NCBI GenBank assembly: GCA_041831495.1
Contig: JBHAST010000058.1
Coordinates: 1 to 43,365, forward strand
Direction: 5' to 3'
From: a bacterium
Lineage (GTDB): Bacteria; Patescibacteriota; Gracilibacteria; Absconditabacterales; Absconditicoccaceae
Length of the DNA stretch: 43,365 bases
The notes below the pieces were generated by a model that was not told the DNA's origin, made no database searches, and saw only the letters and a program-made list of their open reading frames with translations. Made by a program: the position numbers and the translations under genes. This document shows, piece by piece, positions 1,575-40,498 of this stretch; positions within the stretch are counted from its first letter, which is position 1; each line of letters opens with the position of its first letter.

Positions 1575-4500
1575 ATGAAAAAATTACTTTTACTGCTTCT
1601 AGTGCTGACTTTTTTCGTGGGGGGGGGTAGTTTACGCACCTTCGCCCTCATTTCAACACCAACAAGAGATTTCCCCCTTTCCACCCCTGTAGGTAGCGTG
1701 ACAGGACATTGGGACCAAGCCACCCAGACACTCAGTATCGTTGGAAACGGGAAAATTGATGTTGATAAGTGGAAGGCACTCAAAAACACCACGACTAGCC
1801 TTCATCTCGTGAATGCGAATGCCAGCGGAACTCATATTCAATTTCATTCTGGAGTGCAGTTTCCAGATAATGCAGGTCGTTTCTTTGAAGGAGTATATTC
1901 TACCATCGGATTTCCTGCATCAATGGATGTCTCTAATGTAACTGATATGAGCAATATGTTTTCTAAAGCCTATAATTTTAATGCAGAATCGCTCAATTGG
2001 TCTGTCCCTAAGGTAACCACAATGGTGGGAATGTTTCACACTACTCCAGCTTTTACGGGGAAGGTGCATTTTACCAATGCTGATAAGGTTGGTTTAATGA
2101 TTAATATGTTCTATTGATCTCGCGTCAAAGAAGTAAAAATTGAAAATACCGCAGTCCTTACCAGAGTTGATGGAATGTTTTGGGATTCTGCAGTTGAAAA
2201 AGTTGAGTTCACTGATCTCAGAAAAGTGCAAATGGCAACGAGAATGTTTATAGGAGCAACAAAATTTAATGCTGATATTGACCGAGAGGTTCCAGAACTC
2301 AAGGAAGCTTGATCTATGTTTCAAGGAACTACCGATTTTACAGGAAAGGTGATCTTGAGAAATGCAGGTAAGCTCAGCTCTTTAAACTCAATGTTTCAAA
2401 GTTCAGCAGTCAAAGAGGTAGAAATCTTGGGACTGAAAGAAGCAACTACTATGAAGCAAATGTTTTATAGAGCTACAAATCTGGAAACTGTCTCATTTGG
2501 TCCTGATCCAAAAGCTACACAAACCGTGAAAACTATGGCAAGTATGTTTGATTGAGCAAGCAAATTTAATACCGATATTGACCGAGATCTTTCAGAAACA
2601 ACAGAAACGAATGGAATGTTCGCAAATACGCCAGGCTTTTCTGGGAAGGTAAAATTGAGAAATACGGGAAAGATTATCACAACACAAACGATGTTTCATT
2701 CTTCTGCTGTGCGTGAAGTAGAGTTTGATGGCTTAACAGGGGCAACAACAATGATTCAGATGTTTGCAAAAACTGAAAATCTTCAAAAATTAAAACTCTG
2801 AGATACTTCCAATGTTCAAGATATGTCTCAGATGTTTAGGCGATCTACGATGAATCTGGATATTTCGGATTTAAGAATTGATGCTTTGACGAATGGAAGC
2901 TTATTTATCCGAGAAAATAATAAGGCTTTCTCTCGCGTAAACTATGACAAGCTTCTTTCGGGCTGGGCGAGCAGACTTCCTGCGATACCACGCGTTCCGT
3001 CGGTTCCTATAACTATCAACGCTCCTTATTGTCTAGGGAAGGCTGCAAGAGCGGAAATTATCGCTAAAGGCTATAGCATTAGCAGAGATCGACTGGACTG
3101 TGGACTCAGCATCACCGAAAGACCAGCCGCAAAAATCTCAAGTGGAACAATGGCAAAACGCCAGATTATTATTCAGTCTGCTGCCCCTATTCATACCGGG
3201 TCGATCAAGATTATCGCTGGAAATCTCGGCTATAGCAATTTGAAATGCACTTCATCAGCGGCTCTTCCGACTAAAGTGAATTGTTATCTGGATATCACCG
3301 CTACGCCTGTTGGAGCCCTTTCTCAACTCACGATTCAAGCCACAGACACGATGTGAGATAGTGAGCAATATCTCCTTTCAGGGTTTATCATTGATACGAA
3401 GAAACCAGAGATCGGGCAGGTAAGTATTGATGTGAGTAATGGAATCTCTACTCCAAAGGTCAAACTACGTGCTTTCCCAAGAGATGAATGAGGATCAGGT
3501 TTTTCTGGTTGTAATTTTGTCTATACGGGTGATGATGGGACTTTAAAAACCGTTCCTGCCTCTACTAGCGAATCGGACTTGAGTTTCGATCCAAGTGAAA
3601 CTACCCATACACTCCGCGTGCTTTGCTATGATAAGGTAGGGAATAGCTCTGAAAATCTGATCAAGTTTCCACCTATTATCACCTTTAATCCTGACAATCT
3701 CACGCTCAGCAATCAGGCTATGAACGGTGTTTTTGAGGTTTATTCTCCATCGTCGGTAGCGATTGGTAGTATTCAACTTAACTATAGTGATAATACTCCT
3801 GTTAGTTTCTCGTGCAGAAGCCAGATTGATAACGGCACAACTCCTCCCTTTACCAATAGTCCAACCGCACCTGTTCGCTGTGAATATAGCAATGCGAATC
3901 GCTCAGGAACCCTCGTCGCTAAGGCTCAAGATATCAATGGAGCTGCAGGACAGCAGATGCAAAGCGTAATCCTTGATACTAACCAGCCTCATATCACGAT
4001 CAGTCCAGAAAATGCTCTTACAAGCGGAAATCTCGTGATCAAAATTCAGGTTTTTGATGCTGTAGGAATCCAGACTTGAGCAGTAGGTATCTCAAGTTCG
4101 CTTGATCATTCAGATTGGGATTGCGTGCAAAGTGGAGCTACGATGGTTCGTTGTCAATTTACAGCAAATACTGCAATCCAAAATGGAAATCTGACCATCA
4201 CAGCAACCGACCTTGCAGGCAATGGAGAAAGTAAAACCACCTCATGATACACGATAGACCAAATGCTTCCAACTATTGACCAACTTAATGCCACTTTTCA
4301 GGAGAGCTGAACGAAACTTTTGGTGAGTTTTAGTGGTTCTGATGCTGGAGGAGCAGGGCTATGGAAGCAGTCAGAAAACGGGAATCCTCAATTTGATGCT
4401 GCTGCGATATCCTATGGTCTTGCTTCAGATGTAAATTGTAGTAATTTCGTGAGTATTGATAGCTTGAGCCCTCAAGAAATTGAGCCTTATAGCTTAAACT

Positions 4501-5945
4501 TTGAATTTAATGATGTAACTCAAAACGGAAAATACCTCTGTATCGTGGTCAAAGATAAAGTATGAAATACGCAAACAGGAGCACTTTCTAGTCCACTGAA
4601 TCTCAATATTGCACCAAGCTTCCCTCTTCATACCGCAACAATCGCTGAAAATAGTGCAATCGGAAGCTTCGTAAGCCTTCTTACTGGAAGTGATGTAAAT
4701 ACAGGTGATACCCTGACTTATACTATCATTGAAGGAAATACAGGAACAGCGTTTAGCATACAAGATAATAGACTTATAGTCAATGGTGCACTGGATTATG
4801 AAACTCTTTCAGGCTATCGTTTGATGATTAAAGTTAGTGATCAGTATGGACTCTTTTGAACGGGAGAAATGGAGATTACGCTAAACGATAAAGATGAGAT
4901 TTTGCCTACTTTAAGCACAGGAAGCTCTGTGAATTATCCGCAAGGTGCTACGATCACTCCGATTGTCTTTACAGGAAGTGATAACCAGGCGATCAGTGGG
5001 CGAAAGGTGACAGGACTTCCAGCAGGACTAACCTTTGAAGGAACGACAGGAGCTACGACAGGAAACTTGACGATCTCGGGAACCCTTTCTGCACCTACAG
5101 GAACTTATCTCATTAGTGTTGAACTTAGCGACCATGAAGGGAATGTTGCTCTTCAGACCTTTACTATTACAATCAAAACCCCTTCTCAACCTGGTTATTC
5201 ATGATGATGAGGAAAAGCACTTTCTCAGCCAACAAATCAAAATCCTGATCCTCAAACCCCAGTTCAAACCGAAAATCAGGTAAAATTCAACGATAGCGAT
5301 CTCTTCAATCCAACAATAGAAGACGGAAAGTGTTATACGAGAAGACCTCATCAGTGAATCCAGACCTCAACTACGTTCCCAACTACAGAAGAATTTAATA
5401 AAGCTCTAAGCTTTCTTTGGACTTATGAGATGACGAAATATGATAGCGTAGCTGGTTATGATCCGTATAGAAACTTGAGCAGACAGGAAGCAGCAAAAAT
5501 CTTTTCACAGTTTGCTACGAATGTCCTCTGTAGAAAACCAGATCAGAACTTAAGAGTAAACTATAGCGATACCGAAAATGCAGACCCAAGCCTGAAGCCT
5601 TATATTACGCTTGCGTATCAGCTTGGTTTGATGAAAGGAAGCGGACAAGGAGATGGGCTCTTCAGACCGTATGAAATGATCAGTAAAGCAGAGGTGAATG
5701 CCGTGTTGATTAGAATGATTTTGAAGGCTTACTTGAATGAAACATCTCTAGCAAATTGGTTTAGTAATTATAATGAAGTAGCTACGAAATTAGGAATTAT
5801 CAATCAATGAGCGGGACTACAGTCAGTTCCAAGAAATGATGTTGCATTGATGCTGTTTAGAGCCTACAAAAATCAGGTATTTGACCGACAAGAGATTGAC
5901 TATTTCAGCTATGTCTTGAAATCGAGAGATCTCTTTGTGAAGTAA
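1575..5945 (+). CDS. Giant secreted surface protein (1456 aa): DUF285/BspA-type repeats, cadherin-like repeat, Ig-like segment, SLH-like C-terminus
   Basis: Eight ORF-track pieces (1539-2117 through 5430-5810) share one frame. They are separated only by TGA: 16 in-frame TGA and no TAA/TAG by hand translation. ATG 1575 gives a signal-like N-terminus MKKLLLLLLVLTFFVGGG, and the stop is TAA 5943-5945. Motifs: repeated ..MF..A..FN.DI..W... units (DUF285-type); IAENSAIGSFV...ALDYETLSGYRLMIKVSD (cadherin-like); NLSRQEAAKIF...ISKAEVNAVLIRM (SLH-like). Confidence 0.85.
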
Positions 5946-8997: not shown

Positions 8998-9289
8998 CAA
9001 GGTTGATAAAGTCGTTATGTTTTAGGCAAGCATACTCAGCATATTTTTTTCTTTTCTGCTCTTCTCAGTCATCAGTCAAAAAAAGATAAATCAGAATTAT
9101 TTGAGGATCGTAAGCAATTCAGTTAAAGTTGATAGTGACTCTTCATCATGAGAAGCGCCCTTGCATTCAGCTTTGTTTCGGTCATAGATAGTCATTTTTG
9201 TAACTATCTCCTACAAATAGGATCGTTTCGGGTTTTGACTAATCTAGAATTTTGACTATAATAGTAAGTGAATTTTATTTTAAATTTCT

Positions 9290-9925
9290 ATGAAAATGAA
9301 AAAAAACATTAAAATTAGTTTACAGATTTTTTGATGCACTGCAATTTTCGCTTTATTCTTATTTTTGTTTTTGATTTTTTCTATGAGAATTAAATCATCT
9401 AACAATAATTGGAGTGTTTTCTCTTGCAAATTAACAGATAAAGAGACTTTATTTACTCAGTGTGATGATAGAATTACCGCTTGGAAACTTTCTTGAAATA
9501 AACTTTCTTTTTATGCTCCACAGGGAATTGCATCAGTTTATATTCCCTTTACTTCTCCAAATATCAATCTAAGTATTGATGAATCTGCAAATCTAAGTTA
9601 TGATTATTGGATAGTCTATGATAATTTTTGATGGAAAGAACTTCAAAAAGTAGATGGAGAAATAGTAAATGATACTTCAGAGGATGCATTAGAAGAGTCT
9701 TTAAACAATAAAAAAAATAATAACTTCTGGTTTAGTAAAGATAAAACAGGAAAGAAAAATATTAAAATTGATGCTGGAAGACCTTTTAATACCGATGAAC
9801 TTATCGGTTATCCAAATATTGTAAAAAATACATTTCTTACAAAATGAAAGCATGCAAAGGGTGTTATTATGATGATAATGTGAGAAGCACAAGAAGTAAA
9901 TATTCAAAAAATTGAAGTATTGTAA
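9290..9925 (+). CDS. Hypothetical membrane-anchored or secreted protein (211 aa)
   Basis: Codon-by-codon translation from ATG 9290 to TAA 9923-9925 is open if five TGA are read as sense. The N-terminal hydrophobic segment is CTAIFALFLFLFLIF. This ORF is invisible in the standard-code ORF track. Confidence 0.6.
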
Positions 9926-9992
9926 TTATTAAAAATAAATCTCTAAATATCTATAATTTTTTTCTTAAAAACCCTTTGATAGTATAGATAAT

Positions 9993-10016
9993 TCCCTCAT
10001 AGTGAGGGATTTTTTC
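9993..10016 (+). terminator. Putative rho-independent terminator
   Basis: TCCCTC..GAGGGA hairpin followed by TTTTTTC, downstream of the 9290-9925 ORF. Confidence 0.5.
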
Positions 10017-10148
10017 TTTGTTCCAAAATCAATTCTCTCCTATAGATTAAAGGGTGTAATTCTTCCCTTTAATAAAAAGAGGCATTTATCCCCCTTAAAC
10101 TTCAGACTTACTTTTTGGCATTGTCTCAAAAAATAAGCAAAAGTAGAA

Positions 10149-10550
10149 TGATCTTTACTGTTTATCAAAAGGGCTTACTTCTCCAAAGTAATCCGTTCTA
10201 ATACTTCAAAGCACAGGAAGAAGCTATAAAATATGGAGCCATTCGTCCTATTTTTAGAAAAAATCCTAAATATCATGATTTTTGACCAACTTTAATGAAG
10301 GAATATCTTGCCTTGGATTTTGGAGTCAACATTCCAAAAGAGACCTTGAGGTAAATTATGATTAAAGAAGGTATTTGGGTTGCTAATCCTCAAAGAAGGA
10401 GGATTAAGTACCAAAAAAGAATAATGAGAAAAGCTCCTGTAACAAAAAAATAAAAAGAAATGAAATGAAGTTTGCCTCGCGATAGTGAGTCGAACTTCCA
10501 AAGTCATAGAGGGAACTTTGTTATTCATTCTCTCTAAAAGGTAGGAAATG
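10149..10550 (+). pseudogene. Decayed transposase remnant (rve/ISNCY-like N-terminal region)
   Basis: One frame reads MIFTVYQKGLLLQSNPF*YFKAQEEAIKYGAIRPIFRKNPKYHDFGPTLMKEYLALDFGVNIPKETLR*IMIKEGIWVANPQRRRIKYQKR. The ..YxDFGPTL..E.L....G......ETLR.WM...GLW motif of ISNCY-type transposases is present, but it is interrupted by in-frame TAA stops and lacks the DDE core. Confidence 0.55.
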
Positions 10551-10695
10551 GACTACTTTAATCAAAATCAAACAGGATTATTGTCTCTTAGATAGTCTAA
10601 AAAAACAAAAAATTTAGGATTAATGGTAAAAAATGTGTGGCTAAAATAAGGTGAAAAGGTAGTAGATAATTAGCTTTATCTACTATTTTTAATAA

Positions 10696-11025
10696 ATGCA
10701 AATAAAAAAATGTAAGAAATGCGGCGGTAGCCGCATTAAAAAAGATGGGAGAATGAGATGAAAACAAAGGTATAAATGCCAATTATGTTGATATGTGTTT
10801 CAAAACACGCGTAAAACACTCAATACTGAAAAGTTATGGAAAGAATATAGTAGTTGAAAACAGACATATTGAGAAATTGAAGCAAAATATAATCTTAGTA
10901 AAGTAACAGTTCAAAAATATTTAGACACTAAATCAATTTTCAAAATTAAGACAACTCCTCAGAAAACAGTGTTACTAATAGATACAACTTATTTTTGAAG
11001 AAAATATTGAATAATATCTGTTTAA
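10696..11025 (+). pseudogene. Truncated transposase N-terminus (zinc-ribbon plus HTH, IS1/IS1595-like), 109 aa
   Basis: The frame reads MQIKKCKKCGGSRIKKDGRMRGKQRYKCQLCGYVF (CxxC...CxxC), then an HTH-like segment. It ends at ...VLLIDTTYFGRKYGIISV*, just where a catalytic domain would start. It is far too short for a functional transposase. Confidence 0.55.
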
Positions 11026-11260
11026 TTATTTACTCTTACCTCAATGACAAGAAATTTTAAAATCCAGTATTACTTGACAAGCCCAATGATGATTAAATAG
11101 AGTAAATTTATTAAATATCAAAATTCCACTTCCTCCTCTAGAAACTCAAAAACAAATCGTTGCACAAATAGAAAAAATAGAACAAGAAATAGAAAAGTTA
11201 AAATCTGAAATAGCAGAAATCCCAAATAAGAAAGAAGAAATTTTGAGAAAATATTTATAA
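11015..11260 (+). pseudogene. C-terminal remnant of a restriction-modification specificity (HsdS-like) subunit
   Basis: The frame reads ...GQAQGGLNRVNLLNIKIPLPPLETQKQIVAQIEKIEQEIEKLKSEI...*. The I.IPLPPL.EQ..I motif followed by a coiled coil is the conserved HsdS repeat end. There is no start codon and no upstream target-recognition domain. Confidence 0.5.
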
Positions 11261-11274
11261 TTGTATATATAGTC

Positions 11275-11601
11275 ATGAAGGAAATTAAACTCAGTGAAGA
11301 AAACTACAAAGCACTATTAAAGAGCTTGGCAGTAGGGAATTTTATCTATTGAATTATGTCCGATTGTGTAAGTGATTTTTATAAAAAAGATCTACATGAT
11401 TCTGATGGGCTAATTCACCAAATCCTCAAATATTGTGATGATCCTAAGATAAAAGATGTTTGGGAATGAAAAAATATTTTTAGTGAAGAGTATAGCGAGG
11501 AAATTTTTAATGATGTGATAGAGTATGAAAATTATGTTGTAGAAGATTTAACTGGAATTAATATTGATGAATTAGACAAAGAGATTGATAAATTGAGTTA
11601 G
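11275..11601 (+). CDS. Hypothetical protein (108 aa)
   Basis: ATG 11275 to TAG 11599-11601, open with two TGA read as sense. No recognisable motif. Confidence 0.5.
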
Positions 11602-25018: not shown

Positions 25019-26260
25019 ATGTCATCTCCTGATTTCCTCCTTTCCTCCTATGATTATCTACTTCCTGAATCTTGTATCGCTCAGGAGCCTGCTCATCCTG
25101 CTCATAATGCAAAAATGATGGTTGCAATCCCTGATAAGCAGGGGGATTTTGAACTTCAGGATCAGCATTTTCTTGATTTGGCAGCGCAGCTTGATGAGAA
25201 CTATCTGCTTTTCCTCAATAGTACCAAGGTTTTTAAGGCAAGAATTCCGCTTCACAATACCAAAATCATCAGAAAAAGTGGAAAGGAAGTGCTGCTCGCC
25301 TCAGGTGAGATTTTTATTTATCAGCTGCGTTCCGAAAGTCAGTTTGAATGCCTTGTTTCTGATAGTAAAAACTTCAAACCCTGAAGCCAGATCTTTTTTG
25401 AAGAGGGGATTGTGTTCAAGAGTCTGGCTTTCACGGAAAATGGGCTTCTGTTCGAGATTATTGATCTGAAGCGTACTGATGGAAAGGCTCAGCTTTTTGA
25501 TTTTTTAGAGAAGCGGGGAGAAATGCCTTTGCCGCCTTACATTCGCTATGAAAAAGAGAAAGAACAGCGGTATCAAACCTTTTTTGCGGAAAAGGTCGGT
25601 TCTGCTGCAGCTCCTACGGCTTCATTGCATTTTACTCCAGAGCTTGTGAGGCGTTTAGCGTCCAAAAATGTCGGATTTCAGTACTGCTGTTTGCATGTGG
25701 GGCTGGGGACGTTTAAGCCGCTTTATGAAGAAAATATTGCTGATCAGAAGCTCCATTTTGAGCCGATGCTGATTGATCCCCAGATTCGAAAGCTGATCGC
25801 TGATGCCAAGCAAGCTGGAAAAATCTTCCTGCCCGTTGGGACGACAATGATCAGGTATTTGGAGTCTTTACCGTATATTTGGAGATTCCTCAAAAAGAAA
25901 AATCTGATTTCATCTCTTGATCCTGCTACGCAAGCACGACGAAATGATCTAAGCTCCCCAATTTCCGAAGAGTTGATAGCTGAGTTTATTCCTGAAACTT
26001 ACTCAAATGTATCTGATTCTGCAATTTTAGCACCTGGGTGATACCTCATTCAAACCAGGCTTTTTATCAGACCGTGAATTCCTTTTTATTTGACTGATGA
26101 GCTGATTACAAACTTTCATCTACCAAAATCTTCGCTTATGATGCTGATTTCCGCTTTTATGGGAAGAAAAAACCTCTTGAAATGCTATCAAGAGGCGATC
26201 TGAAAAGGCTATCAGTTTTATAGTTTTTGAGATGGAATGCGAGTAAGAAGAAAGGCTTAG
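25019..26260 (+). CDS. queA: S-adenosylmethionine:tRNA ribosyltransferase-isomerase QueA (413 aa)
   Basis: [65 protein letters not shown] and YQFYSF[TGA]DGM. Track pieces 24944-25384 and 25412-26041 plus a tail are joined by TGA. Confidence 0.9.
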
Positions 26261-26261
26261 T

Positions 26262-26666
26262 TTAGTTGCTTTCTTCAAGCGTTTTCCCAATTTGAGTTTT
26301 TGTAGCTTGTTTTGCTTGCTTGACTTCCATTTGCTCAAGAAATACGGCTTTCTGTTCATTCAGGTAGTCTTGGGTTTTTTGCAAAATATCCATTTTTTTT
26401 CAGTATAAATGACCAAAGGTCCGCCCCCCATTTGATAGATTAACATTCAATTCTCAAAGGACATTACCTGATTCTTCACATAAGAGAGCGCTTCTATTTG
26501 ATGGTTCTGTTGGGTCAAATGGTATTAAAGAAATATCATAGTCTTTATCCGCTATAGAAAACTTTACGGTTTTCCCATCAACAAAATCTCTCCATTGTTC
26601 GGGATTGAATGCGGGAAATCAAGTATTTACTTCCTTTTCTGGAGTTCTATTAACATGTGTTTTCAT
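26262..26666 (-). CDS. Hypothetical protein (134 aa), last gene of the minus-strand operon
   Basis: Hand translation from ATG 26664-26666 to TAA 26262-26264 is open with three TGA read as sense. It lies 24 nt downstream of the preceding gene. Confidence 0.5.
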
Positions 26667-26690
26667 CTCTACTTCTATAAGAAATAAAAT

Positions 26691-27194
26691 TTATTTTGCC
26701 TCAATAAAGGTTCTCCTTTTGAGTGTGCTGGAACTTGTAGGCTCTCCCGCTGCTGCTTTTCTTCCTCTCCCTCTATAGGTTTTGAGTTTATCTTTCTTGG
26801 TAAGGGCATCATCAATTTCGTTTTCAAGGTTTTCGATCGTTTTTTTGAGTTCTTGAACTCTTTCCCATTCTACTTGATAGCCTTTCGTATCTCCACTCGC
26901 TTGCAAGGCAATCAGCTTTTTTTGTCTTTTTTCATAGTCATCAAAATACTCGTTGTAGATCGCTAGCATTTCCTGTATTTTCGCATCATTTTTTTCAATG
27001 AGCTGTTCAGTTTTCCCACTCTTAAAATCACCTTTTGCAGTCTTATTTCGTGATCCTGTTGTCGGTTGGCTATTACAACTGCTTGCTGAAAGGGTGATAA
27101 AAGCCGCTGTGGCTGTAGCGAGGCTCAGTTGTTTTGCTCTATTTTTTGCTTCTTTAAGCTGTGCTCCGATTTCTTTAAAGTTGAGAGTAGTCAT
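26691..27194 (-). CDS. Putative lipoprotein or membrane-anchored coiled-coil protein (167 aa)
   Basis: Intact ORF. The N-terminal hydrophobic stretch ends in a LSASSC lipobox-like motif, followed by a heptad-rich segment (IQEMLAIYNEYFDDYEKRQKKLIAL...IENLENEIDDAL). Confidence 0.65.
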   Translation of the reverse strand: MTTLNFKEIGAQLKEAKNRAKQLSLATATAAFITLSASSCNSQPTTGSRNKTAKGDFKSGKTEQLIEKNDAKIQEMLAIYNEYFDDYEKRQKKLIALQASGDTKGYQVEWERVQELKKTIENLENEIDDALTKKDKLKTYRGRGRKAAAGEPTSSSTLKRRTFIEAK

Positions 27195-27227
27195 TGTTTA
27201 TGCTTTTACAAGATAAAAAATCTGATA

Positions 27228-29849
27228 TTACTGGGTAGGGTGTTCCTGTTTCCAAAGTGCATTGAGATATTTTACAAAGAATCTTCTATTTTGTTCAGCT
27301 TCTATAGTAGGAAACTTTCTATCCATAGTACTCAGGATTGGAATTCTATCGCTGAGGATCGTTATTTCTGTTCCATTATTGTGTTTGAAGATAATGTTTT
27401 GAAAGATACGATCATATCGTGTTGAAGATAATGAGAACGGGTAATTTTCATCGTTCTGTTTTTGTAAATCTGGAGTCTCTCATCGTGTGTTGTGATCATT
27501 CTTCAACATGCTCACTAAGAGCCCTATATGCAATAATTCTTCGGCAGATCCAATAGGGATTTCATTTCCCGTAGCATCAACAAAGCCCTCAAGGCGTTTC
27601 TGTTTCATATTGAGTTTGATCTCTTGACCGTAGGCTTTCAGGGTGATACTTTCGGTGTCATTAACTTCAAGTCCTAGCTGCTCAATGTTTGCTTTCCCAG
27701 CCATAGTTTTATAGGTCTTGTAGAGTGTGAGTTTTTCGCTATCAGGGAGCCCAAGCTTTTGAATATTTTGAAAAGTCTCATCATGAGGCAAGAGTAATCC
27801 TTCTTCTTGCATTTTCTTAAAATCACTCTTGCTGAGTTGCTTGTTCGTAAAGATTCTCTGTTCTAATTCCTGTCTTTTCTCCTCATTTACGGTGAGTTGA
27901 TATTGAGTACAGTAATTTTCAAGTTGTTTGAAAGCTTCAGAATCCTGATAAAGTCTTTCATTTAGGTTATTTTGTGCAGAACTTGGATTTGCAAGGTCTT
28001 CTGCTTTGAGTTGCATTTTCTCAATCTCTTGTTGAAAGCGTTTTTCATTGCCTTGGTTGTTGATGATGCTTTCTAGGGCAGCAAGCTGACTTTTGAGAAT
28101 GGATTCAGTTTTCCTATCTTGATTTGCCTTTGCTTTTTCTAGTTCTCAAGTATAGTAGTCTTTTAGTTTTCCTGTATCAATATGAGTAATATTTCCCATT
28201 GCTGGAGAGCTACACTGTGCTAAAGTGCTAAATGGTACACCCAAAAGCACAAATTGAAGCATACTTTGGTTGACAGCAATCTTTTCAATTCCTGTGGCTT
28301 GGTCAAATGCTTTACTATTCCAAGGCGCAACTCCTGTTCTTCGGAAAGTATTGATATTTTCTAATAATCACTTTCCTGTTGCTGCTTGAGAAGCATAGTT
28401 TGCAAGCATTGGAAGTCCAATCGCAGCAGCAATTTTTCCAAGTGAAAAGCCAAATTTTCATTCCTTGTTTGTAAAAAGCCATTTTCCTACAAGAATCGCT
28501 GCTCCAATCATTCCAACCGTTGTAAGCGTATTGACTGCATTTCTCGCTTGTCCATGAGACATTTTTGTATTTTTATCAAGCCACTTTTCTGCGATGTTTG
28601 CATAGCCTCCACAGGTTTGAAAATAGGTATTAACCGGAACAAAGTTTTTATTAAAGTCTTTTTGAAGCAATGCTTGATTATAGATTTCAATTGGTTTCCC
28701 TTGATAGGAGAGTGTGGTTTTTGCTCCAGATTTAATTTTATTTTTGTTTTTGTAGAGATCAATGATCAGCGGGTTTTGTTCAAGAAAAGCGATTGGAGTA
28801 TTGATATAAATGCCCTGTTCTAAGGCTTGAGCGATTTGTCAAAGTACACTTGCCTTTCGTAGTTTGTAATTATTGCTATTTTGCTCATTAAGGAGTTTTT
28901 CGTAAGATGTAAGCAGTTTATCAAGTTCTTTTCCAGATTTTTTTTCTGCTTTTAATCTTTTTTCTATTCTTTTTCTTGCTGCCTTAATACTAGCAGGATC
29001 CAAAAGATCTTCTCTAGTGAGGTAATCTTGATATTTCTTAGGAATCTGAAGAGAGAGTGCTTGAGGAGGGGCGACTAAGCTATCAATCCTATCTAATTCA
29101 CGCAACTGTTCAGCGGTAAGGAAAATGTTCCCTTTCTCGTCAGGCTTAATCGTTTTTGAAAGTTTTTCCAAACGCTTCGTAACTTCTTGTGCTTTTTGGT
29201 CAAGAGTAAGTTCTGCTTTTTGTTCGTGAGTTTCAGATTTCTCTTCTGATGAAGTCTGAGGCGTTGTGCTTTTCGTTTCTGGGACTTGTTCCTGAGTCAT
29301 GGTATTTGAGATTTGTTCGTTTGTTTCTGAGACCTGTTCTTGAGTGATAGTCTTTGAGCTTTCGTCCTTTGTTTTTTCCTGAAGGTTTCAACTACTAGGA
29401 GCTTGTGCTAATTGTTTTTTTATGCTAAGAATGATGCGATCTTGCTCTGGAGTCGTAGTAAATTTCTCCTCAAGAAGAAGTTGTTCTGCAGTTTTTCAAG
29501 CTCCATTTTCTTTGATTCGTTGCTGAAAGTTGGGATTATCTGGATTTTTCCCTTCAAAATTATACCTTTTAGAGAGTTCAATACCTGTTTTTTGAAAGAG
29601 CGCTTCCTGTTCTGGGGTAAAGCTAAAGTTTTGTTCAGTTAGTAGTTTTTCTGCTTTGTCATAATGTTCCTTTCAAAAAAGATTTTCAATAAAAGATTTC
29701 CTGAGCGCTTTCATATCAATGCGATTTACCTGTTCAGAAAACTTATCAAGAGGTTTTTCTGCAATTTTTTCTCAGAGTTGCTTTACTTCCATGCTTGATA
29801 GTGAAGGAGCTTGCTGCTCGGTTTCTTTTTTGATTTCAACGATATTCAT
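27228..29849 (-). CDS. Large uncharacterised membrane protein 'D' (873 aa): coiled-coil/STQ-rich N-terminus, Gly/Ala-rich TM pair, helical C-terminus
   Basis: Track pieces 28839-29300, 28458-28670 and 27480-28016 share a frame. All gaps were translated codon by codon and contain only TGA. The upstream in-frame stop is at 29934-29936, the first ATG at 29847-29849, and TAA at 27228-27230. The TM candidates are TTVGMIGAAILVGKWLF and FGFSLGKIAAAIGLPMLANYA. Confidence 0.8.
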
Positions 29850-29884
29850 CAGTTTTTCTCTAAGAGATAAAATTCCCTGCCTCA

Positions 29885-29913
29885 AGTATATCCAGAAAAC
29901 TGAAAAATGTCAA
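29885..29913 (-). promoter_or_regulatory. Near-consensus sigma-70 promoter for gene D (TTGACA, 17 nt, TATACT)
   Basis: On the minus strand: TTGACA (29908-29913), exactly 17 nt, then TATACT (29885-29890). This sits about 36 nt upstream of ATG 29849. Confidence 0.55.
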
Positions 29914-30048
29914 AAAAAATCAGACTTTTTTATTTATACTATGTATATCACAAATTTGAAATATGCAAAGCCCATTCGTAAGCTCAGATAAAAAATGCTG
30001 AGCTTTTTCGTTCCATTTGAGTATACTTAGAGCTGTTTATTTCTCGTG

Positions 30049-31548
30049 ATGGAGATGATGAAAAAAAACTCGCTTTCGTTCCTAGGATATGCCTTTTGAG
30101 GAGTGCTTTTCCTTGCTTGGATTCTCTTCCTTTTTTTTGATGCAAAGAAAGAAACCTTCTTATGAGCTGATAATGCTCAGCTTTCTCCAGCAAATGAAGC
30201 TTCCCAACTTTCAGGAGAAGATCCTCATCAGAATGCTGAACTTTTATCTGGGTTTTTACAGCAGGAAGAAGTGCTTACTTCCGAGAATCTTCAGAGCCTT
30301 GGAGAATTAAAGGAAAAAATTGAAGTCTTGGAGCAGCTTTTTGCCGAGCAAGCAAAGAGCGAACTTGCGAACCTCCTTTTAGAAGCTTATCAGCTTGATA
30401 AGCAGTTTGATACCGCAAAAAAGTTCTATCTAAGCCTGAATGAAGAGATGAAAGCTGACTTGGATCAGACTTTAGATTTTAAGCTGGGAATCCAGACTTT
30501 TTCTCAGACTTCAGATACTGAATATCGTAATCTCAAAGCCCTTTTGGAGCAGAAATATGAGCAGAAACTCTTTTCCTCACTTGAGAGAAAGTATTACGCG
30601 ATTGCTTTTGCCCTAGCTGATCAGCGTTATGATGCGGTAAAGGCTGGAATACAAGAGCTCTACGGCACAAAATATCAGGATTTTGCTCGTGGAATCCAGT
30701 CCGCCTTTGACCAATATGCGAACCTCAAAGATGTTCCTGCATATTACCAAGATGCCTTGCTCGCCTATCAGCTGATGAACGAGGGCTTCCTCGCTTTGTC
30801 CAAGAAAATGGCACTTTCGCTGGTAAATCAGTATCCTAACTATATTTTGCCGTATCAGATCCTCGCAAATGTTGATTTTTCTATGGGGAAGCGATCTTCG
30901 GCTGCTCGTTATTTTTCTCAGCTTTTGGAGCTGGATTATCAGGAGAAAAATCTCTATCTTTATCATTTAGGAGCTTGTTATTATCGTTTGGAGAAATATT
31001 CTGATGCCGTACTGTATTTGGCGCAGATTACCGATCCGAGTATTTTACTCGATTCTGATAGATATTTGATTTTGAGTTATCTCGCTCTTGGAGAAGAGGA
31101 AAGAGTTTTTTCAGGTTGGCAGAGATTACTAGGCTATCCATCAATCAAAAAATCAGATTTTTATTCTTTTTTTGAAGAGGCATTGCGAAAATCCTATCGC
31201 CTCTGAAAGTCCTCTCCTTACCTAAAAAAGAACGAAAAACTTGTCCAATCCTACCTTCTCGCTTGCAGTAAAAAGCTTTCATGAAGCGATGCTGAGGTTT
31301 GTCAGTATGGAGAACTCGGACTTGCTGCTCAGCAGGGAAAAATTTCAGATCTTGAAGTCCAAGTTTCCCGTTTAGCAAGAAAATATCCAAAATCTGAATT
31401 CTTTCTCCTTTTGGCTCAGCTTGCGGAAGAAAAATGAGATGAAAAAGAGGCAACTGCATCCTTGATGAGAGCCTTGAGTCTAACGAAATCTGCAGAAGAA
31501 AAAGCCTATCTTAAGGAGCAGATTCTCAAGTTAAATGAAGTAGAGTAG
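30049..31548 (+). CDS. Membrane-anchored TPR-like helical-repeat protein (499 aa)
   Basis: The frame of track piece 30271..31206 extends upstream through two TGA to ATG 30049 (MEMMKKNSLSFLGYAFGGVLFLAWILFLFF, a TM helix). It extends downstream through three TGA to TAG 31546-31548. TPR-like segments include AARYFSQLLELDYQEKNLYLYHLGACYYRLEKYSDAVLYL. Confidence 0.75.
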
Positions 31549-31669: not shown

Positions 31670-31747
31670 TGGGGCGACTGATGGGGTTCGAACCCACGAC
31701 CCTCTGGACCACAATCAGATGCTCTAACCAACTGAGCTACAGTCGCC
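31670..31747 (-). tRNA. tRNA-His (anticodon GTG) with encoded G-1 and 3' CCA
   Basis: The reverse complement is GGCGACTGTAGCTCAGTTGGTTAGAGCATCTGATTGTGGTCCAGAGGGTCGTGGGTTCGAACCCCATCAGTCGCCCCA. It folds as a cloverleaf: acceptor GCGACTG/CAGTCGC, an extra 5' G opposite C73, D arm GCTC/GAGC, anticodon loop TTGTGGT, T arm GTGGG-TTCGAAC-CCCAT. Confidence 0.9.
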
Positions 31748-35385: not shown

Positions 35386-38300
35386 ATGACAGAAGCAACA
35401 GAACAGCTCAAATCAGAAATCTCAGATCAATACCTCAAAGATTTTAAAGATGAACTCTGATGGATGAAATCATTGGCACTTTTGCCGATAGAAGAAAAAG
35501 TCAAAAAAATCCTGACTGGTGCCTTTCAATTGCCTGAAAAGTTTGATGAAGTCAAAGAGTTTGGTTGGTGGAAAGATATTATCAATTTTGTCTCTCCTAG
35601 TGTTGCAAATCAGATTTTTGACTTTATGAAAACAAAGAGACTAGAAATAGAAAAGAGAAAAACAGAAGATGAATTGCGTAAACTCAAAGCAGAGATTTTG
35701 TGAGAATCTGTTGAGGAAACTGCTCCAACTGGAACCCCTGCTTCAACTCCTGATACACAAACTCAAAATTCTTCAGATACTGTGCAAACTCCTGCATCAT
35801 CAGATATCGCTCCTGGCGAGAATGTATCTTCAAATATCAATTCTGCTCTAGCATGAGCGGGAACTGCAGCAATCTGAGTGCTGGCAACCAAATGAATTGC
35901 TTCTAAACTCAATGCTAGAGAACTGCAAAAAATGGCAGAAAATTTTGATACAGAAAAGGCTAAAAATCTCCTCAATAATGCCATTGATGCTTTGGAAAAG
36001 CAAAAGCAGACGCTCGCTTCTCGTTTGAGCACAAAGCAGATCGCAAACATTGACAAGCATATTGCCAAGCTCAAAGAGGGAATGACTACTGCCGATGATG
36101 ATGTGATCAAGCTCCTCAAGGCATGGCAACAGCTTGATACGAAACTTCCCAAAAAACTTTTAGTAGAAGCGGGACTTTCTGTTGCTCAGCTTGCTAAGAT
36201 TGAAAAACTTGCACCTCAGCTCATCGGAAAAGAGTCTCAAGCTCTCAAGGCAATTCTTGATCAAAATGGACTAAAAATCAGTGATGATATAATCTCTGCA
36301 TTGGCAAAAGCAGGGACGGAAGCAGAAATCAAAACCATGACCAGAATCCTCAAGCATGGAAGTAAAATCAATAGATTTACTCAGGCTTTTGCTGGTGCGA
36401 TGCTGATTGATGTTGCTTGTTTAGGGCTAGATGTATGGATGTATTTAGAAACGCAAAAAGAAGCAGACCTCATCGCAAAGGTAAACGAACTCAGAGCTCA
36501 AAATAAAAGAAATCAGGCAACGACTCAGCTTTGGATTGGTATTGGTTCGGTAGCAGCAGAGGTGGCGATTATTCTCACTGCAATGAGTGGAGGAACCGCG
36601 GTTTGAGGTCCCTTTGGAACGGTTGCTGGTTTGGTTGTGGGAGGGCTTTCTGCAGCTGCGAGTATGGGAGTGGATAGCCTTTATTTTGATGTGCAGGATT
36701 TCTATAAGCAGAACCGCGAAGATTTCCTCAGACAAAAACAATCTCAGCTCAATCAGGCCATTCTCCAAGGACTCCACAATCAAAAAGAAGGAGACAAAAG
36801 CCTGAATGAAAAACTTTGATCACCAGAACCAAGTCAGAAAGCACAATCTCTACAAGATGCGATCTGGTCAAGAATTTTCCTTGATGAACTGCAAAATGGA
36901 AACTTTGCGAGCTATGGTCCTTTTTGGGAGTATGTGCAGAGCGGGGAAAAGAAAGCTGATTTTGTAGATAAACTTACTGCTGATCAGTCGGCTGAGTTTA
37001 GGCAAAAACGAGAGGAGATTTCGCTAGTCATTGCCAAGAGAATGGAGTATGTCAATCAGGAACTCAAAAAAACAACCGTAATGCAGGCTTTGAAGCAAGG
37101 AAGAGGTATGCAAGCGGTTTCTACACTGATTACCCAATCAAAAGCATATGCAGAGCTTACATCGCAAGACAAGCGAAATCAAAAACTGTCTTTTGAACAG
37201 AATCTTGCGAAGTATAAGTCAAATTTTTTTGCTGATTTTCCAAAGCAAAAGCTAGAAAAACTAGAAAAAATAAAAAAATCTGATCCTTACCTCTTTCAAG
37301 AGCTGATGGCGACAGCTTCTTTGTCTTCTCTCATCAGGGAAACACAGACAGATCTCAACTATGATCAGAATGTAAAGCTCGTTGCGAAGTACCAAGAATG
37401 GCTGGATTTGACTGCTCCTCAGGAGGAAAAAATCAAACTAAAAATTCCTGATTCTGCAAAAAATATGAGATTTATAGAAAAGTTTTTGGAAGCTGATTTT
37501 GAAGTTGATAAGGTCGCTTTTCTCGGAAACTCGGCAGATCAAGTGAAAAACCTTATCCATCTCAGGCAAGAAAGAAATGCAGTGATGGAAATTTCCGATG
37601 GTCCGATACAAAATGCCTTGTATAGACTGGCAAAAGAGCTTTATGGTTATACTGGGGCTAATGAAAAGGAGGATTTGATGGCATTTTACGATGAAAGTAA
37701 TGGTGCTGTCCACGGAATCTACTACAAAGATGCACGAAAGGTCAATGAAGACTGGGCTATTGATAGCGGAATGAAGATGGGGAAGTGAACCGCAAAGCTC
37801 AATTCTGAAGCTGAAATCAATCAATATGTAGCATCTTTTATGAGCAGAAACTTTGAAACAATCGATCAAAACGGACATTCTATCAAAAAATCCGCGATTG
37901 ATACTCCAACAGAAACAATTGATAGCTATCTGCAAGAGGAGTTTGAAACACAGTTTGCTCGCTTGCTCAAAGAGGAATTGCTTACTCGCACTCCAAACCA
38001 CCAAAACAAGGTAAAAAATCAGATTTCTTCTTTTGTTCAACAGCAAGCCAAAAATGGTGAATATGTAGAATTGCCGTATTATCTCCTCTTGGCAGCGAGG
38101 CAAGCGGGATTAGGAGATTTGCAAAAGCATTTTTATACTCGGAAAAATGGGAAAATGGAGGTGGTTATGCTTCCTTCTGAGCTGAATAATGCCTATGGTT
38201 TAGATGCCAAAAAAACGTATTTGACCAAGACTCGTGAACACTTTTCAGAGCAAGAGCAGATCTATATTCAGAGAGTAGAAAATGCTCATCAACTACTGGA

Positions 38301-39465
38301 AAATCTGAGAAATCTCGGAGGAACAGCTTTTTTGAGAGAAGGCTTTGAAGATGAGCTAGATCTCCCAGCAGAAATTGAAGTACTGATCAGTGATAAATAC
38401 AAAGAATGGAATGCTTTTAAGTCCGATATCTTGCTTTATAGTGCAGAAAGTGCGACAAGTTCAGATATTGTGATGAAATATCAAGCATTTGCTGAGTATT
38501 TTGAGCATCTTTATCGTGGGATTTTGCTCAGTTTGGGCGATTTCAAGATGAGTAATGATGTGGATTCTTTTGCATTGTATCGTGGAGCATTGAGCTTATG
38601 AAGCCAAAATCTCTTTGATGAAAACGGAGGTTTGAAGTCAGATTTATCTTCTTCTTTTCTCCAAAATGAGCAGGTAAAAACTTTTTATGCTCAGCAGCTC
38701 AATAAGCACTCCATCTGAGGAAAAACACTTGCACAGCTGCGATCTTCTGAGGAAAGCAAAGAGCAGTCGCTAGCAAAAAGAGCAAGTGAAGCGATCCTTA
38801 CGGCAATCTTGGAGCAGAGTTTTCTGAAAAAAGCTAAAGATGGCAAGATTACGAGTATTGCAATCGGTGGACATTGGCTTGATACCGATAAAAACTCCTT
38901 TGCTAATGCACAAACTGAAGCTCTCATTCAGCAAAAACTTGCTCAACTCCAAAATCTACCAGATCTTGATAAAAATAGCATCGCAACTCTTCAAACTCAG
39001 CAACAAACGATCAAACCTTTGACTCAACACGAGGAAAAGCTGGTGCCTCAGGTGTCAGCGATTCAAAAGCAGATTGAAGCCACGATGAGCGAAGTTGTCT
39101 GGCAAGGAAAAAGGGGAAATCTGACCTACGATCCCGAGCAATCCACGATTTCTAGCCGAAATAATACCGTTGGAGTAGAAATTAAAGGAGATAAGCTGTA
39201 TCTCAAAGGTCTTGATCTAGCTTTTTCTCCTCAGGAACTCGCATGGTTTGCAAACTTTCGCAATCGAGTAAAACATAAATATCAAGGGAAAACTCTTGTC
39301 TTTGCAAGAGATTTGATGAATACTTCGTTTTCATTTAGGAAAACTTTTGTAGTTGATGGGACGATGTTGATTGCTAGATGAGACCTAGAAAAGCATTTGC
39401 CTTGCTGTAAAGATGATGCCGTGATGCAGAAAATGCTCGTTTGGCTTAATTCAGCTTTGAAATAA
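35386..39465 (+). CDS. Giant uncharacterised protein 'B' (1359 aa): N-terminal module, STP-rich linker, Gly/Ala-rich TM cluster, long helical C-terminus
   Basis: Track pieces 35464-35703, 35932-36606, 36631-36819, 36934-37788, 37840-38601 and 38809-39381 share a frame, and the gaps contain only TGA. ATG 35386 lies 29 nt after the stop of A. The stop is TAA 39463-39465. The TM cluster is FAGAMLIDVACLGLDVWMYL ... LWIGIGSVAAEVAIILTAMSGGTAVGGPFGTVAGLVVGGLSAAASMG. Confidence 0.8.
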
Positions 39466-39490: not shown

Positions 39491-40498
39491 ATGAATATAC
39501 TTAATGCACTGAATGAGATCGTTGAAGCAGTAAACGAAACCTCGGAAGACACAGCCACTGCAGAAAATCTGCTCAACCTTAAAAAAGAGCTTGCAGAGCA
39601 GATTGTTGAAAAAATGGAAGCTGAGAGCCCTGATCTTTTGCTTTCAATGGGGAGGGATTTTGTGGTTGATTATTTGGTAGATGAGGGAATGATGGATAAA
39701 ATCCATGATGCTTTTGTTGAAAAGGGCTTAGATGCTCTGACTTCTGTTTCTCCAAAACTTAAAGAGCTTAGAGAAAAATTAGGAAAAGTCTGAACGGAGG
39801 CGGAGCTTCAGCATTTAAAAGCTGAAATTTTACACGAAAATGTTGCTCCAGCTTCAGAAGCTGCAGCTTGAGCTGAAGTTACTTCTACTTCTCCAACCTC
39901 TAAACCTTCTTCTGAGGCTCTTGCATCTTCCCCTTCGGTTTCTAGCTCATCTTTTCAAGGTTCTGCTGTTGAATCTTCTTTTCGTGAGGCTCCAAACGAA
40001 CTTCTTGCTCCTGGGGTTTTGGGGTTTAATGCTGCTAAGATTCAGTCTTCTCCTTTTGAAAGAAGTCGCTCAGGAACAACGCTTTGTGCCAAGACCGCTA
40101 AAGAAAATGCAGAAAAATTCGGTATTGAACTGCCTTCGGGGAATGCGCGAGATGCTTCACAAGAGTTACCAATTGCAGAAAATTATATAACAAGTCTTCC
40201 TATAGACAAAAAAACTGAAAGACCACAAAGATCGCGAGAATCTTTGACGATTGAAGATTTTAATGCGATGGAAGGTGTAAATGTTGCAGATATTTACCCT
40301 GATTCTAAATCAAAATATGGGCATAGAGCACTTGCTTTTAGAGATGTTTCAGGGGAGCGAATGGTGCTTGATCCTTATATCAAAGTGAATGGAGTGAGAG
40401 ATAGAAAACCAAAAAAGCTAGAGGACTACCTGCAGGCGAGAAAGATCTTTAAAAGTCATTTCTATGTTGTGGATCATAATAAAAAACTTGTTGCGTAA
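39491..40498 (+). CDS. Uncharacterised protein 'C' (335 aa): N-terminal module shared with B, Ser-rich linker, C-terminal Cys...His peptidase-like domain
   Basis: Track pieces 39491-39793 and 40019-40498 are in frame across two TGA. ATG 39491 lies 25 nt after the stop of B. The C-terminus contains SGTTLCAKTAKENAEKFGIELPSGNARDA ... SKYGHRALAFRD. Confidence 0.8.

What the first reader, a model, noticed from the sequence alone, without database searches (positions are those of the whole stretch)
26262..29913. Divergently placed operon with a fourth large protein (D) of the same architecture and a near-consensus promoter
**Gene D.** Gene D (873 aa, 27228-29849, minus strand) is only visible after joining three track fragments. 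Its layout matches A and B: a charged, coiled N-terminus, a T/S/Q/E-rich linker (..TKDESSKTITQEQVSETNEQISNTMTQEQVPETKSTTPQTSSEEKSETHEQ..), a pair of Gly/Ala-rich TM helices, then a long helical region.

**Shared C-terminus with B.** The extreme C-terminus of D resembles that of B.
- D: ...ITLKAYGQEIKLNMKQ...FKHNNGTEITILSDRIPILSTMDRKFPTIEAEQNRRFFVKYLNALW...
- B: ...VGVEIKGDKLYLKGLD...FVVDGTMLIARGDLEKHLPCCKDDAVMQKMLVWLNSALK

Both end in a (V/K)(W/Y)LN(A/S)L motif.

**Operon context.** D is followed at 33-nt and 24-nt spacing by a lipobox-bearing coiled-coil protein (26691-27194) and a 134-aa ORF (26262-26666). It is preceded by the best promoter match in the window: TTGACA, 17 nt, TATACT at 29885-29913. 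This suggests a paralogous or partner module of the A-B-C system.
Basis: partly seen in the sequence, partly recalled or inferred. Interest (0 to 1): 0.7.

Follow-up and report, generated by a model that had tools for sequence, protein, structure and literature searches.

The report
Orphan SR1 membrane-protein operon sharing B's end-domain
Gene D is a real 873-residue membrane protein of an oral SR1 (Absconditabacteria) bacterium, readable only because TGA codes for glycine here; it forms a conserved, strongly promoted gene pair with a small membrane-anchored partner, shares one previously undescribed C-terminal domain with protein B, and is not a conserved neighbour of the A-B-C genes.

Summary
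D (27228-29849, minus strand) is one open frame once TGA is read as Gly (code 25).

- **Promoter.** The motif alone is not above chance in the window. However, it sits 35 nt before the ATG and is conserved in all 17 D loci inspected, so it is very likely real.
- **Known families.** D matches nothing in Pfam, NCBIfam, PHROGs, PDB (sequence or fold) or BFVD.
- **Relation to A and B.** Pairwise BLASTP finds no similarity to either. Profile comparison shows that the last ~150 residues of D and B are the same domain (hhalign score 32.5; shuffled controls 11.8±1.9, maximum 18). AF2 gives both the same order of strands and helices. A third protein, X, found upstream of A in other lineages, is hit by both profiles. 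There is no homology to A or to the rest of B.
- **Gene neighbourhood.** In about 40 loci, D is followed by its small anchored coiled-coil partner wherever the DNA extends that far, and queA lies beside it in all but a few short loci. A-B-C lies within 10 kb only in the window's own clade.
- **Verdict.** D and its partner form an autonomous, lineage-specific envelope module that shares a domain with B and X. Function is unknown, and the idea that D is a partner of A-B-C is only weakly supported.

The parts
27228..29849 (-). Gene D: 873 aa under genetic code 25, with nine in-frame TGA = Gly codons at positions 26, 59, 118, 154, 337, 464, 494, 568 and 790. It belongs to an orphan membrane-protein family of oral SR1.
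29885..29913 (-). Sigma-70-type promoter TTGACA-17 nt-TATACT, ending 35 nt upstream of the D start codon. It is preceded by a conserved GTCTGA-T-run.
   Evidence: It is conserved as TCAGACTTTTTT-TTGAC(T/A)-N16-17-TATA(A/C)T in 17 of 17 D loci.
29214..29399 (-). Disordered T/S/Q/E-rich linker of D (residues 151-212).
   Evidence: pLDDT 23-34; sequence
28398..28541 (-). Gly/Ala-rich hydrophobic helical hairpin of D (residues 437-459 and 466-484). It is preceded by the family hallmark NTKMSxxQAR and followed by SQAATGK.
27231..27686 (-). C-terminal beta3-alpha-beta3-alpha3 module of D (residues ~722-873), homologous to the C-terminus of B and to the modules of X and P0174.
26691..27194 (-). Partner gene (167 aa): N-terminal basic stretch, hydrophobic anchor ending in ...SASSC (a possible lipobox), then a ~110-residue coiled coil with the conserved motifs YNEYFDDYE, LQAxGD and RRTF.
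   Evidence: It lies immediately after D in every D locus that extends that far.
26262..26666 (-). Third ORF (134 aa, three TGA codons). It occurs only in the window's clade and evolves fast: 38% identity to the orthologue in L008, where D is 88% and the partner 85% identical.
26172..26196 (-). Terminator-like hairpin plus T-run, 66 nt after the stop of the third ORF, inside the 3' end of the convergent queA gene.
39112..39462 (+). C-terminal module of protein B (residues ~1243-1359), the counterpart of D's module.

Best explanation
**Organism and code.** D belongs to a human-oral SR1/Absconditabacteria genome that reads TGA as glycine.

**What the locus is.** It is an autonomous, lineage-specific gene module. 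A conserved near-consensus sigma-70-type promoter precedes D, a small N-terminally anchored coiled-coil partner and, in this clade only, a fast-evolving third ORF.

**Shown.**
- The reading frame and the genetic code.
- The promoter motif and its conservation.
- The invariable D-partner pairing and the queA synteny.
- The absence of any known family or fold.
- A ~150-residue C-terminal beta3-alpha-beta3-alpha3 domain shared with B and with protein X of other A-B loci.

**Inferred.**
- D is held in the membrane by its Gly/Ala-rich helical hairpin at 437-484. A third hydrophobic segment at 524-551 may place the conserved C-terminal ~320 residues outside the cell.
- There D would pair with the exposed coiled coil of its partner to form an envelope complex.
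- The shared C-terminal module would be an interaction domain that binds the same kind of ligand in D, B and X, such as the cell wall or a common envelope component.
- On this reading D works in parallel with the A-B(-X) proteins, whose loci carry NlpC/P60 and YkuD wall enzymes, and is not an obligatory subunit of them.
For: - **Code 25:**
- **Lineage:** the only GTDB species hits are SR1 bacterium human oral taxon HOT-345 and an oral SR1 MAG.
- **Family size and limits:** 4 proteins by word search and 59 representatives by exhaustive HMMER, many of them code-11 fragments.
- **No known family or fold:**
- **Promoter conservation:**
- **Pairing and synteny:** D is followed by its partner in every locus that extends far enough, and queA is adjacent in nearly all. 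A/B/C/X are absent from the DNA held (up to 10 kb each side) in the two other D clades.
- **Hydrophobic segments:**
- **AF2 model:** pLDDT 72-91 for residues 500-873.
- **Shared module:**
  - hhalign with controls.
  - Matching strand/helix order in the two AF2 models.
  - Both profiles hit X and nothing else among 1210 ORFs, with E = 5.5e-6 and 3.9e-10.
  - Both profiles weakly hit the three tandem modules of P0174.
  - Alignment of the modules.
- **Wall enzymes next to A-B:**
Against: - Topology is not established. The hydrophobic segments are weak (Kyte-Doolittle 1.2-1.5), and AF2 confidence there is low (pLDDT 27-49). With only two membrane passes the whole protein would face the cytoplasm and could not touch an external partner domain.
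- No function is attached to any homologue.
- The hhalign probability for the D-B domain is only ~50%, and the two models could not be superposed.
- The partner's Cys is not conserved in the largest clade, so lipidation is uncertain.
- Physical interaction between D and its partner, co-transcription and terminator use are all inferred from gene order and motifs.
Confidence: 0.55

Rival explanations
1. D is a true component of the A-B-C machine. In lineages that lack X upstream of A, D (with its partner) supplies the module-bearing third membrane subunit. The divergent arrangement in the window reflects co-regulation.
For: - D is adjacent and divergent to TPR-A-B-C in the window and its close relatives.
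- D shares the C-terminal module with B and X.
- X has a D-like build and sits directly upstream of A in L004, L005, L012 and probably L044. The window and L002, L003 and L045 have no X there.
- In L022 the D locus lies 7 kb from the miaA-fer2-sigma70 block that flanks A-B-C in the window and in L004.
Against: - No A, B, C or X lies in the DNA held around D (up to 10 kb each side) in any locus of the two other clades.
- D has its own conserved promoter, partner and queA synteny.
- There is no detectable homology between D and A or the body of B.
- A tRNA-His gene and a TPR gene separate D from A, and the tRNA marks a rearrangement point.
Confidence: 0.2
2. D is a mainly cytoplasmic, membrane-tethered scaffold, for example for division or envelope biogenesis, and is unrelated in role to A-B-C. 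The shared C-terminal domain is an old mobile domain with no common ligand.
For: - D has no signal peptide, and its N-terminal 430 residues are charged, helical and disordered.
- The hairpin alone would return the chain to the cytoplasm.
- D sits among housekeeping genes: queA, ftsE and tilS-like.
Against: - The co-transcribed partner has a type-II/lipoprotein-like anchor that would put its conserved coiled coil outside the cell.
- The module occurs in 1-3 tandem C-terminal copies in relatives, a pattern more typical of external binding modules. This is inference only.
Confidence: 0.15
3. D is part of a prophage or other mobile element, for example a tape-measure-like protein with membrane segments.
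For: - D is long and helical, with Gly-rich hydrophobic segments.
- D has a strain-level mosaic segment, and the third ORF is hypervariable.
Against: - No PHROG family matches, and BFVD and PDB give no structural match.
- The chromosomal position beside queA is stable in about 40 loci across three clades.
- No phage genes lie nearby.
Confidence: 0.03
4. The region is a decayed pseudogene or is non-coding, because the frame carries nine stop codons under the standard bacterial code.
For: the ORF listing with table 11 breaks the frame into fragments of 84-178 aa.
Against: - All nine stops are TGA. TGA aligns with Gly in orthologues and in catalytic motifs window-wide.
- Full-length orthologues exist at 30-88% identity.
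Confidence: 0.01

Closest known systems
C-terminal domain of protein B (window 35386-39465) and of the uncharacterised B family of SR1/Gracilibacteria
   Same: - A ~120-150-residue module at the extreme C-terminus, with the order three strands, a 16-18-residue helix, three strands, three helices.
- Shared signatures: L-x-F-x-S-x-E-E-L-x-x-x-(A/G)-N-x-x-N, a (F/L)P(T/C) turn and a final (W/Y)L(N/T) helix.
   Different: - The rest of the proteins is unrelated.
- B is 1359 aa, with hydrophobic segments at 154-172 and 334-434.
- B is always paired with A and followed by wall-enzyme genes, while D is paired with its own small partner and queA.
Protein X (645-686 aa), encoded directly upstream of A in other lineages (L004 4576-6636; L012 4839-6776)
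   Same: - The overall build: coiled-coil N-terminus, charged low-complexity linker, Gly-rich hydrophobic segments and C-terminal modules.
- X is hit by both the D and the B C-terminal profiles.
   Different: - X carries two modules, and its N-terminal 171 residues are 69% identical to the neighbouring A protein.
- X lacks D's NTKMSxxQAR-hairpin-SQAATGK core.
- X is linked to A-B and not to queA.
Distant D-superfamily proteins P0153 (1057 aa) and P0174 (1488 aa)
   Same: They share D's central region, including the NTKM(S/T)xxQAR motif, the hydrophobic hairpin and SQxxTG.
   Different: Their C-terminal parts differ from D's. P0174 has three tandem modules that match the D and B profiles only weakly. 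Their genomic context was not examined.
Bacterial lipoproteins (lipobox-dependent anchoring), as the model for the partner protein
   Same: A basic N-terminus and a hydrophobic stretch of ~17 residues, followed by small residues and Cys (ASSC here; TTGC, INSC and SASC in relatives).
   Different: - The Cys lies at residue 40, later than usual.
- Position -3 is not Leu/Val/Ile in most relatives.
- The Cys is replaced by Trp in the largest clade, where the segment must act as a plain membrane anchor.
Polytopic membrane components of monoderm type IV secretion systems reported in Patescibacteria (VirB6/PrgH-like; bioRxiv 10.1101/2025.01.22.634366)
   Same: Resemblance is general only: large membrane proteins of CPR bacteria encoded near wall hydrolases.
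   Different: - No Pfam, NCBIfam or PDB match to any T4SS component.
- That paper reports VirB6 homologues as scarce or absent in Gracilibacteria.
- No VirB4 or coupling ATPase is nearby.

Membership tests
   - BLASTP finds nothing.
- hhalign D-family against A-family gives P = 0.22.
- D against B shows only the C-terminal stretch.
   - hhalign score 32.5 (P = 1.6e-4), against 8.8-16 for other B slices and 11.8 ± 1.9 (maximum 18) for column shuffles.
- Same order of secondary-structure elements in the AF2 models.
- Both profiles hit the bridging protein X.
Partner module of the A-B-C system | Conserved genomic linkage of D with A/B/C across lineages | tested here: not met
   Linkage exists only in the window's clade. 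It is absent from all D loci of the two other clades and from B loci L002-L005, L012, L044 and L045.
Partner module of the A-B-C system | Genome-level co-occurrence of D with A/B | not tested
Sigma-70-type promoter | -35 and -10 hexamers with 16-18 nt spacing, correctly placed upstream of the gene | tested here: met
   TTGACA-17-TATACT, an 11/12 match, with the -10 ending 35 nt before the ATG. The motif count in the window equals chance (2 against 2.2).
Sigma-70-type promoter | Conservation of the elements in orthologous loci | tested here: met
   17 of 17 loci keep TTGAC(T/A)-N16-17-TATA(A/C)T and the upstream TCAGAC-T-run, down to 31% protein identity.
Sigma-70-type promoter | Mapped transcription start | not testable with these tools
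   No transcript data are available.
Operon D-partner-ORF134 | Same strand, short gaps, no internal terminator, terminator after the last gene | tested here: met
   - The gaps are 33 and 24 nt.
- The only strong terminator-like hairpin on this strand is at 26196-26172, after ORF134.
- Co-transcription itself was not measured.
Bacterial lipoprotein (partner, 26691-27194) | Lipobox [LVI][ASTVI][GAS]C after an N-terminal hydrophobic region | tested here: inconclusive
   The sequence is ...FITLSASSC, with Cys at residue 40. Cys is kept in three clades and replaced by Trp in the largest clade. Presence of Lgt/Lsp was not checked.
Genetic code 25 (SR1/Gracilibacteria) | TGA read as Gly | tested here: met
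   TGA lies at P-loop and ABC-signature Gly positions. It pairs with Gly 20 times and with Trp 0 times in orthologue alignments. The taxon is SR1.
Phage tail tape-measure / mobile-element protein | Match to phage protein families or structures, and a phage gene context | tested here: not met
   PHROGs gives 0 families, the best BFVD hit has E = 0.06 and TM 0.08, and the context is housekeeping genes.
Any curated protein family or solved fold | Significant hit in Pfam, NCBIfam, PDB sequences or PDB folds | tested here: not met

The most novel reading that the evidence does not exclude
D, B and X carry a previously undescribed surface module. Together with A and the polymorphic C proteins they would be parts of an SR1/Gracilibacteria-specific envelope apparatus that presents or delivers wall-degrading enzymes to the host bacterium. 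The C proteins share one N-terminal domain fused to NlpC/P60, YkuD or unknown C-termini. The D-partner pair would be a second, separately promoted anchoring unit of that apparatus.
Probability: 0.12. Interest if true: 0.75.

Novelty: new variant of a known kind. Interest (0 to 1): 0.35.

Why it matters
Oral SR1 bacteria are thought to live on other bacteria, as the few cultivated CPR relatives do, and almost none of their envelope proteins has a known role.

- **An unannotated family defined.** This work defines a protein family, its obligatory partner and its promoter, none of which is covered by current annotation.
- **Annotation is damaged by the genetic code.** Many database entries for this family are code-11 fragments or carry Trp where Gly belongs.
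- **A new domain linking three sets of proteins.** The shared C-terminal domain ties together three otherwise unrelated sets of large membrane proteins. Two of them (B and X) sit next to wall-hydrolase genes. The domain is therefore a concrete handle for asking how these cells build their surface or attack a host wall.
- **Limits.** The finding does not overturn anything known, and the function remains open.

Tried and rejected
- **Standard-code ORF listing** fragments the gene. I replaced it with code-25 translation.
- **Pairwise BLASTP** of D, the partner and ORF134 against all window proteins found nothing significant.
- **Family and structure libraries** gave no usable hit:
  - Pfam, NCBIfam and PHROGs on D, the partner, ORF134, A, B, C, six D relatives and two X proteins.
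  - PDB sequence profile search.
  - Foldseek of the D model against PDB and BFVD, and of the B C-terminal model against PDB.
- **Full-length profile comparison** of D against A and D against B shows no relationship beyond the C-terminal domain.
- **The 910-aa gene at the left edge of L004** was tested as a possible D relative and is not one.
- **The first genome-collection scan** with the 14-sequence alignment failed for lack of conserved columns. I repeated it with five sequences.
- **Linking D and B to one genome** by looking up NCBI-sourced B homologues gave other assemblies, so genome-level co-occurrence stays open.
- **Promoter significance from motif count alone** was rejected: 2 matches found against 2.2 expected.
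- **Prophage and pseudogene readings** were rejected; see the rival explanations.
Full report
**1. The gene and the genetic code**

Under the standard bacterial code the region breaks into ORFs of 84-178 aa. The frame 27228-29849 (-) has 873 sense codons interrupted only by nine TGA codons, and it ends in TAA.

Treating TGA as sense turns the whole window into long, tightly packed genes. TGA falls on the glycines of a P-loop (MKIIxITxPSAAGKGT) and of the ABC signature (LSxGE). In alignments of D, QueA and FtsE with orthologues, TGA pairs with Gly 20 times and never with Trp.

This is genetic code 25. The only species-level genome hits for D are SR1 bacterium human oral taxon HOT-345 and an oral SR1 MAG.

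**2. Anatomy of D**

- The N-terminal ~150 residues are helical and contain repeated F-x-x-TPEQ motifs.
- Residues 151-212 are a disordered T/S/Q/E-rich linker (pLDDT 23-34).
- A further helical region follows.
- Two Gly/Ala-rich hydrophobic helices lie at 437-459 and 466-484. They are preceded by NTKMSxxQAR and followed by SQAATGK, the hallmark of the family.
- A third, weaker hydrophobic stretch lies at 524-551.
- The C-terminal half is well predicted (pLDDT 72-91) and ends in a beta3-alpha-beta3-alpha3 domain.

The resemblance to A and B in layout is real but loose, because the hydrophobic segments sit at quite different positions.

**3. What D is related to**

D has no match in Pfam, NCBIfam, PHROGs or PDB sequences. 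Its model has no match in PDB or BFVD folds.

The family is small. A word-indexed search finds four proteins. An exhaustive HMMER search finds 59 representatives, many of them fragments produced by wrong-code gene calling. Full-length members are 30-46% identical to D over residues ~170-873. Two distant relatives, P0153 and P0174, share only the central hairpin region.

**4. The claimed link to B**

BLASTP sees nothing between D and A, B or C. Profiles tell a different story for the C-terminus:

- The D-family C-terminus against the last 175 residues of the B family gives hhalign score 32.5 (P = 1.6e-4, probability 51%). The alignment covers 118 collinear columns that end at both C-termini.
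- Twenty other 175-residue slices of B score 8.8-16, except the one that overlaps the true domain.
- The reversed alignment scores 12.4, and 100 column shuffles give 11.8 ± 1.9 with a maximum of 18.
- AF2 models of D and of the last 200 residues of B (pLDDT ~90 in the domain) show the same order of elements: strands, a 16-18-residue helix, three strands, then helices of about 8, 4 and 16 residues.

Two bridging proteins strengthen this:

- Protein X (645-686 aa) lies directly upstream of A in L004, L005 and L012. Both the D and the B C-terminal profiles hit it, with E = 5.5e-6 and 3.9e-10. They hit nothing else among 1210 background ORFs.
- P0174 carries three tandem copies of the module, which both profiles touch weakly.

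Outside this domain there is no D-B similarity, and there is no D-A similarity at all (P = 0.22). The domain itself has no PDB fold match.

**5. The operon and promoter**

TTGACA-17-TATACT lies at 29913-29885 (-), and the -10 ends 35 nt before the ATG. Such an 11/12 match occurs twice in the window against 2.2 expected by chance, so the motif alone proves nothing.

Conservation is the decisive evidence. The same elements, plus an upstream TCAGAC-T-run, are present in all 17 D loci inspected, down to 31% protein identity and regardless of what lies upstream.

On the coding strand, the only strong terminator-like hairpin follows the third ORF, at 26196-26172 inside the end of the convergent queA gene.

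The small partner follows D in every locus that reaches that far. It has a basic N-terminus and a hydrophobic anchor, then a conserved coiled coil with the motifs YNEYFDDYE, LQAxGD and RRTF. The Cys that would make it a lipoprotein is kept in three clades but is Trp in the largest one.

The 134-aa ORF exists only in the window's clade. It is 38% identical between strains whose D and partner proteins are 88% and 85% identical.

**6. Linkage to A-B-C**

In the window and its close relatives the order is C<-B<-A, tRNA-His, <-TPR | D->partner->ORF134-> <-queA, with the three-gene block A-B-C on the strand opposite to D.

The two other D clades are HOT-345-like at 42% identity and a large clade at 30-33% identity.
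- In both, D keeps its partner. queA is adjacent, convergent in the first clade and divergent in the second.
- No A, B, C, X or TPR gene lies within the DNA held, up to 10 kb on each side.

B loci from seven other contigs have no D within 10 kb.

In L001 a tRNA-His gene lies directly upstream of D. In the window the same tRNA separates the TPR gene from A, which points to a rearrangement.

In L022 the D locus is 7 kb from the miaA-fer2-sigma70 block that flanks A-B-C in the window and in L004. No A-B-C lies between them there.

Adjacency is therefore lineage-specific. Genome-level co-occurrence could not be tested.

**7. Interpretation**

The best-supported reading is an autonomous, strongly expressed two-gene envelope module (D plus its anchored coiled-coil partner). 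It shares one novel domain with B and X.

I infer, but have not shown, the following:
- D is membrane-anchored by its hairpin.
- The C-terminal half may be external if the third segment spans the membrane.
- D pairs with its partner.
- The shared module binds a common ligand.

A-B(-X) loci elsewhere carry genes with NlpC/P60 and YkuD_2 domains behind a common N-terminal domain. A wall-related role for the module is therefore a reasonable lead, but only a lead.

The literature held here notes small modules of hypothetical proteins acquired by animal-associated Absconditabacteria and Gracilibacteria, without characterising them (PMC8406219). A survey of Patescibacterial type IV secretion found no VirB6 homologues to speak of in Gracilibacteria (10.1101/2025.01.22.634366). 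Nothing here matches that system.

**8. Verdict**

- The family and its C-terminal domain are undescribed, but the general kind of locus is ordinary for a CPR genome and no mechanism is demonstrated.
- Interest is moderate to low (0.35).

Noticed in passing
window 1-43365: The whole window uses genetic code 25 (TGA = Gly). Public protein entries for these genes carry Trp at those positions (for example P0001 and P0005) or are split into fragments, so database annotation of this lineage is systematically damaged.
   Followed up: yes
L004 4576-6636; L005 4575-6635; L012 4839-6776: An extra gene, X (645-686 aa), lies directly upstream of A in other lineages. Its first 171 residues are 69% identical to the neighbouring A protein, and it carries two copies of the B/D-type C-terminal module. 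It looks like a mosaic of A-like and B/D-like parts.
   Followed up: partly
L002 14228-17577; L004 14122-16383; L044 9185-11455; window 39491-40498: The genes after B are polymorphic. They share an N-terminal ~160 residues with the window's C protein but end in YkuD_2, NlpC/P60 or an unannotated domain, in one to four tandem copies. This resembles a cassette of wall-active effectors.
   Followed up: partly
window 35575-35835 (B residues 64-150) and 39731-39949 (C residues 81-153): The N-terminal regions of B and C resemble each other (33% identity over 87 residues; E = 0.004 in a 35-protein database), including the motif EL..LKAEIL.E.V followed by a Ser/Thr/Pro-rich linker.
   Followed up: no
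window 26262-26666: The third ORF of the D operon is confined to the window's clade. It is only 38% identical to its positional orthologue in L008, although the flanking genes are 85-88% identical. It is either fast-evolving or has been replaced.
   Followed up: partly
window 28845-29069 (D residues 261-335): D contains a mosaic segment. This stretch is 37% identical to the close relative P0002, while the flanks are 96-98% identical. P0002's version is closer (65%) to the distant HOT-345 type. This suggests intragenic recombination.
   Followed up: partly
window 31670-31746 (-); L001 8357-8433: tRNA-His lies between the TPR gene and gene A. The same tRNA lies directly upstream of D in the HOT-345-type locus and 6 kb upstream of A in L002. 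It probably marks a rearrangement point that brought D and A-B-C together.
   Followed up: partly
window 29981-30004: A perfect 7-bp hairpin (AGCTCAG-N10-CTGAGCT) lies in the divergent D/TPR intergenic region. On the plus strand it is followed by a T-run, about 45 nt before the TPR gene start. Its role is unknown.
   Followed up: no
window 30049-31548: A 499-aa protein with an N-terminal membrane anchor and TPR repeats (below the Pfam gathering cut-offs) lies between D and A. It is present only in the window's clade.
   Followed up: partly
window 9235-9262 (+): A second 11/12 promoter-like match (TTGACT-16-TATAAT) sits just upstream of the 211-aa ORF at 9290-9925.
   Followed up: no
window 9000-11600: A low-GC stretch (0.29-0.33 against ~0.39 elsewhere) contains short ORFs. 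One is a Cys-rich, zinc-finger-like ORF (10696-11025) with six TGA codons that looks like an insertion-sequence remnant.
   Followed up: no
window 1575-5945: A 1456-aa protein has a signal-peptide-like N-terminus and many internal repeats (leucine-rich-repeat-like, then Ig/cadherin-like). It is probably a surface adhesin. It was not examined.
   Followed up: no
L022 9491-22077: In this relative the D-partner pair lies 7 kb from the pilin-miaA-fer2-sigma70 block that flanks A-B-C in the window and in L004, but housekeeping genes fill the gap and not A-B-C.
   Followed up: partly
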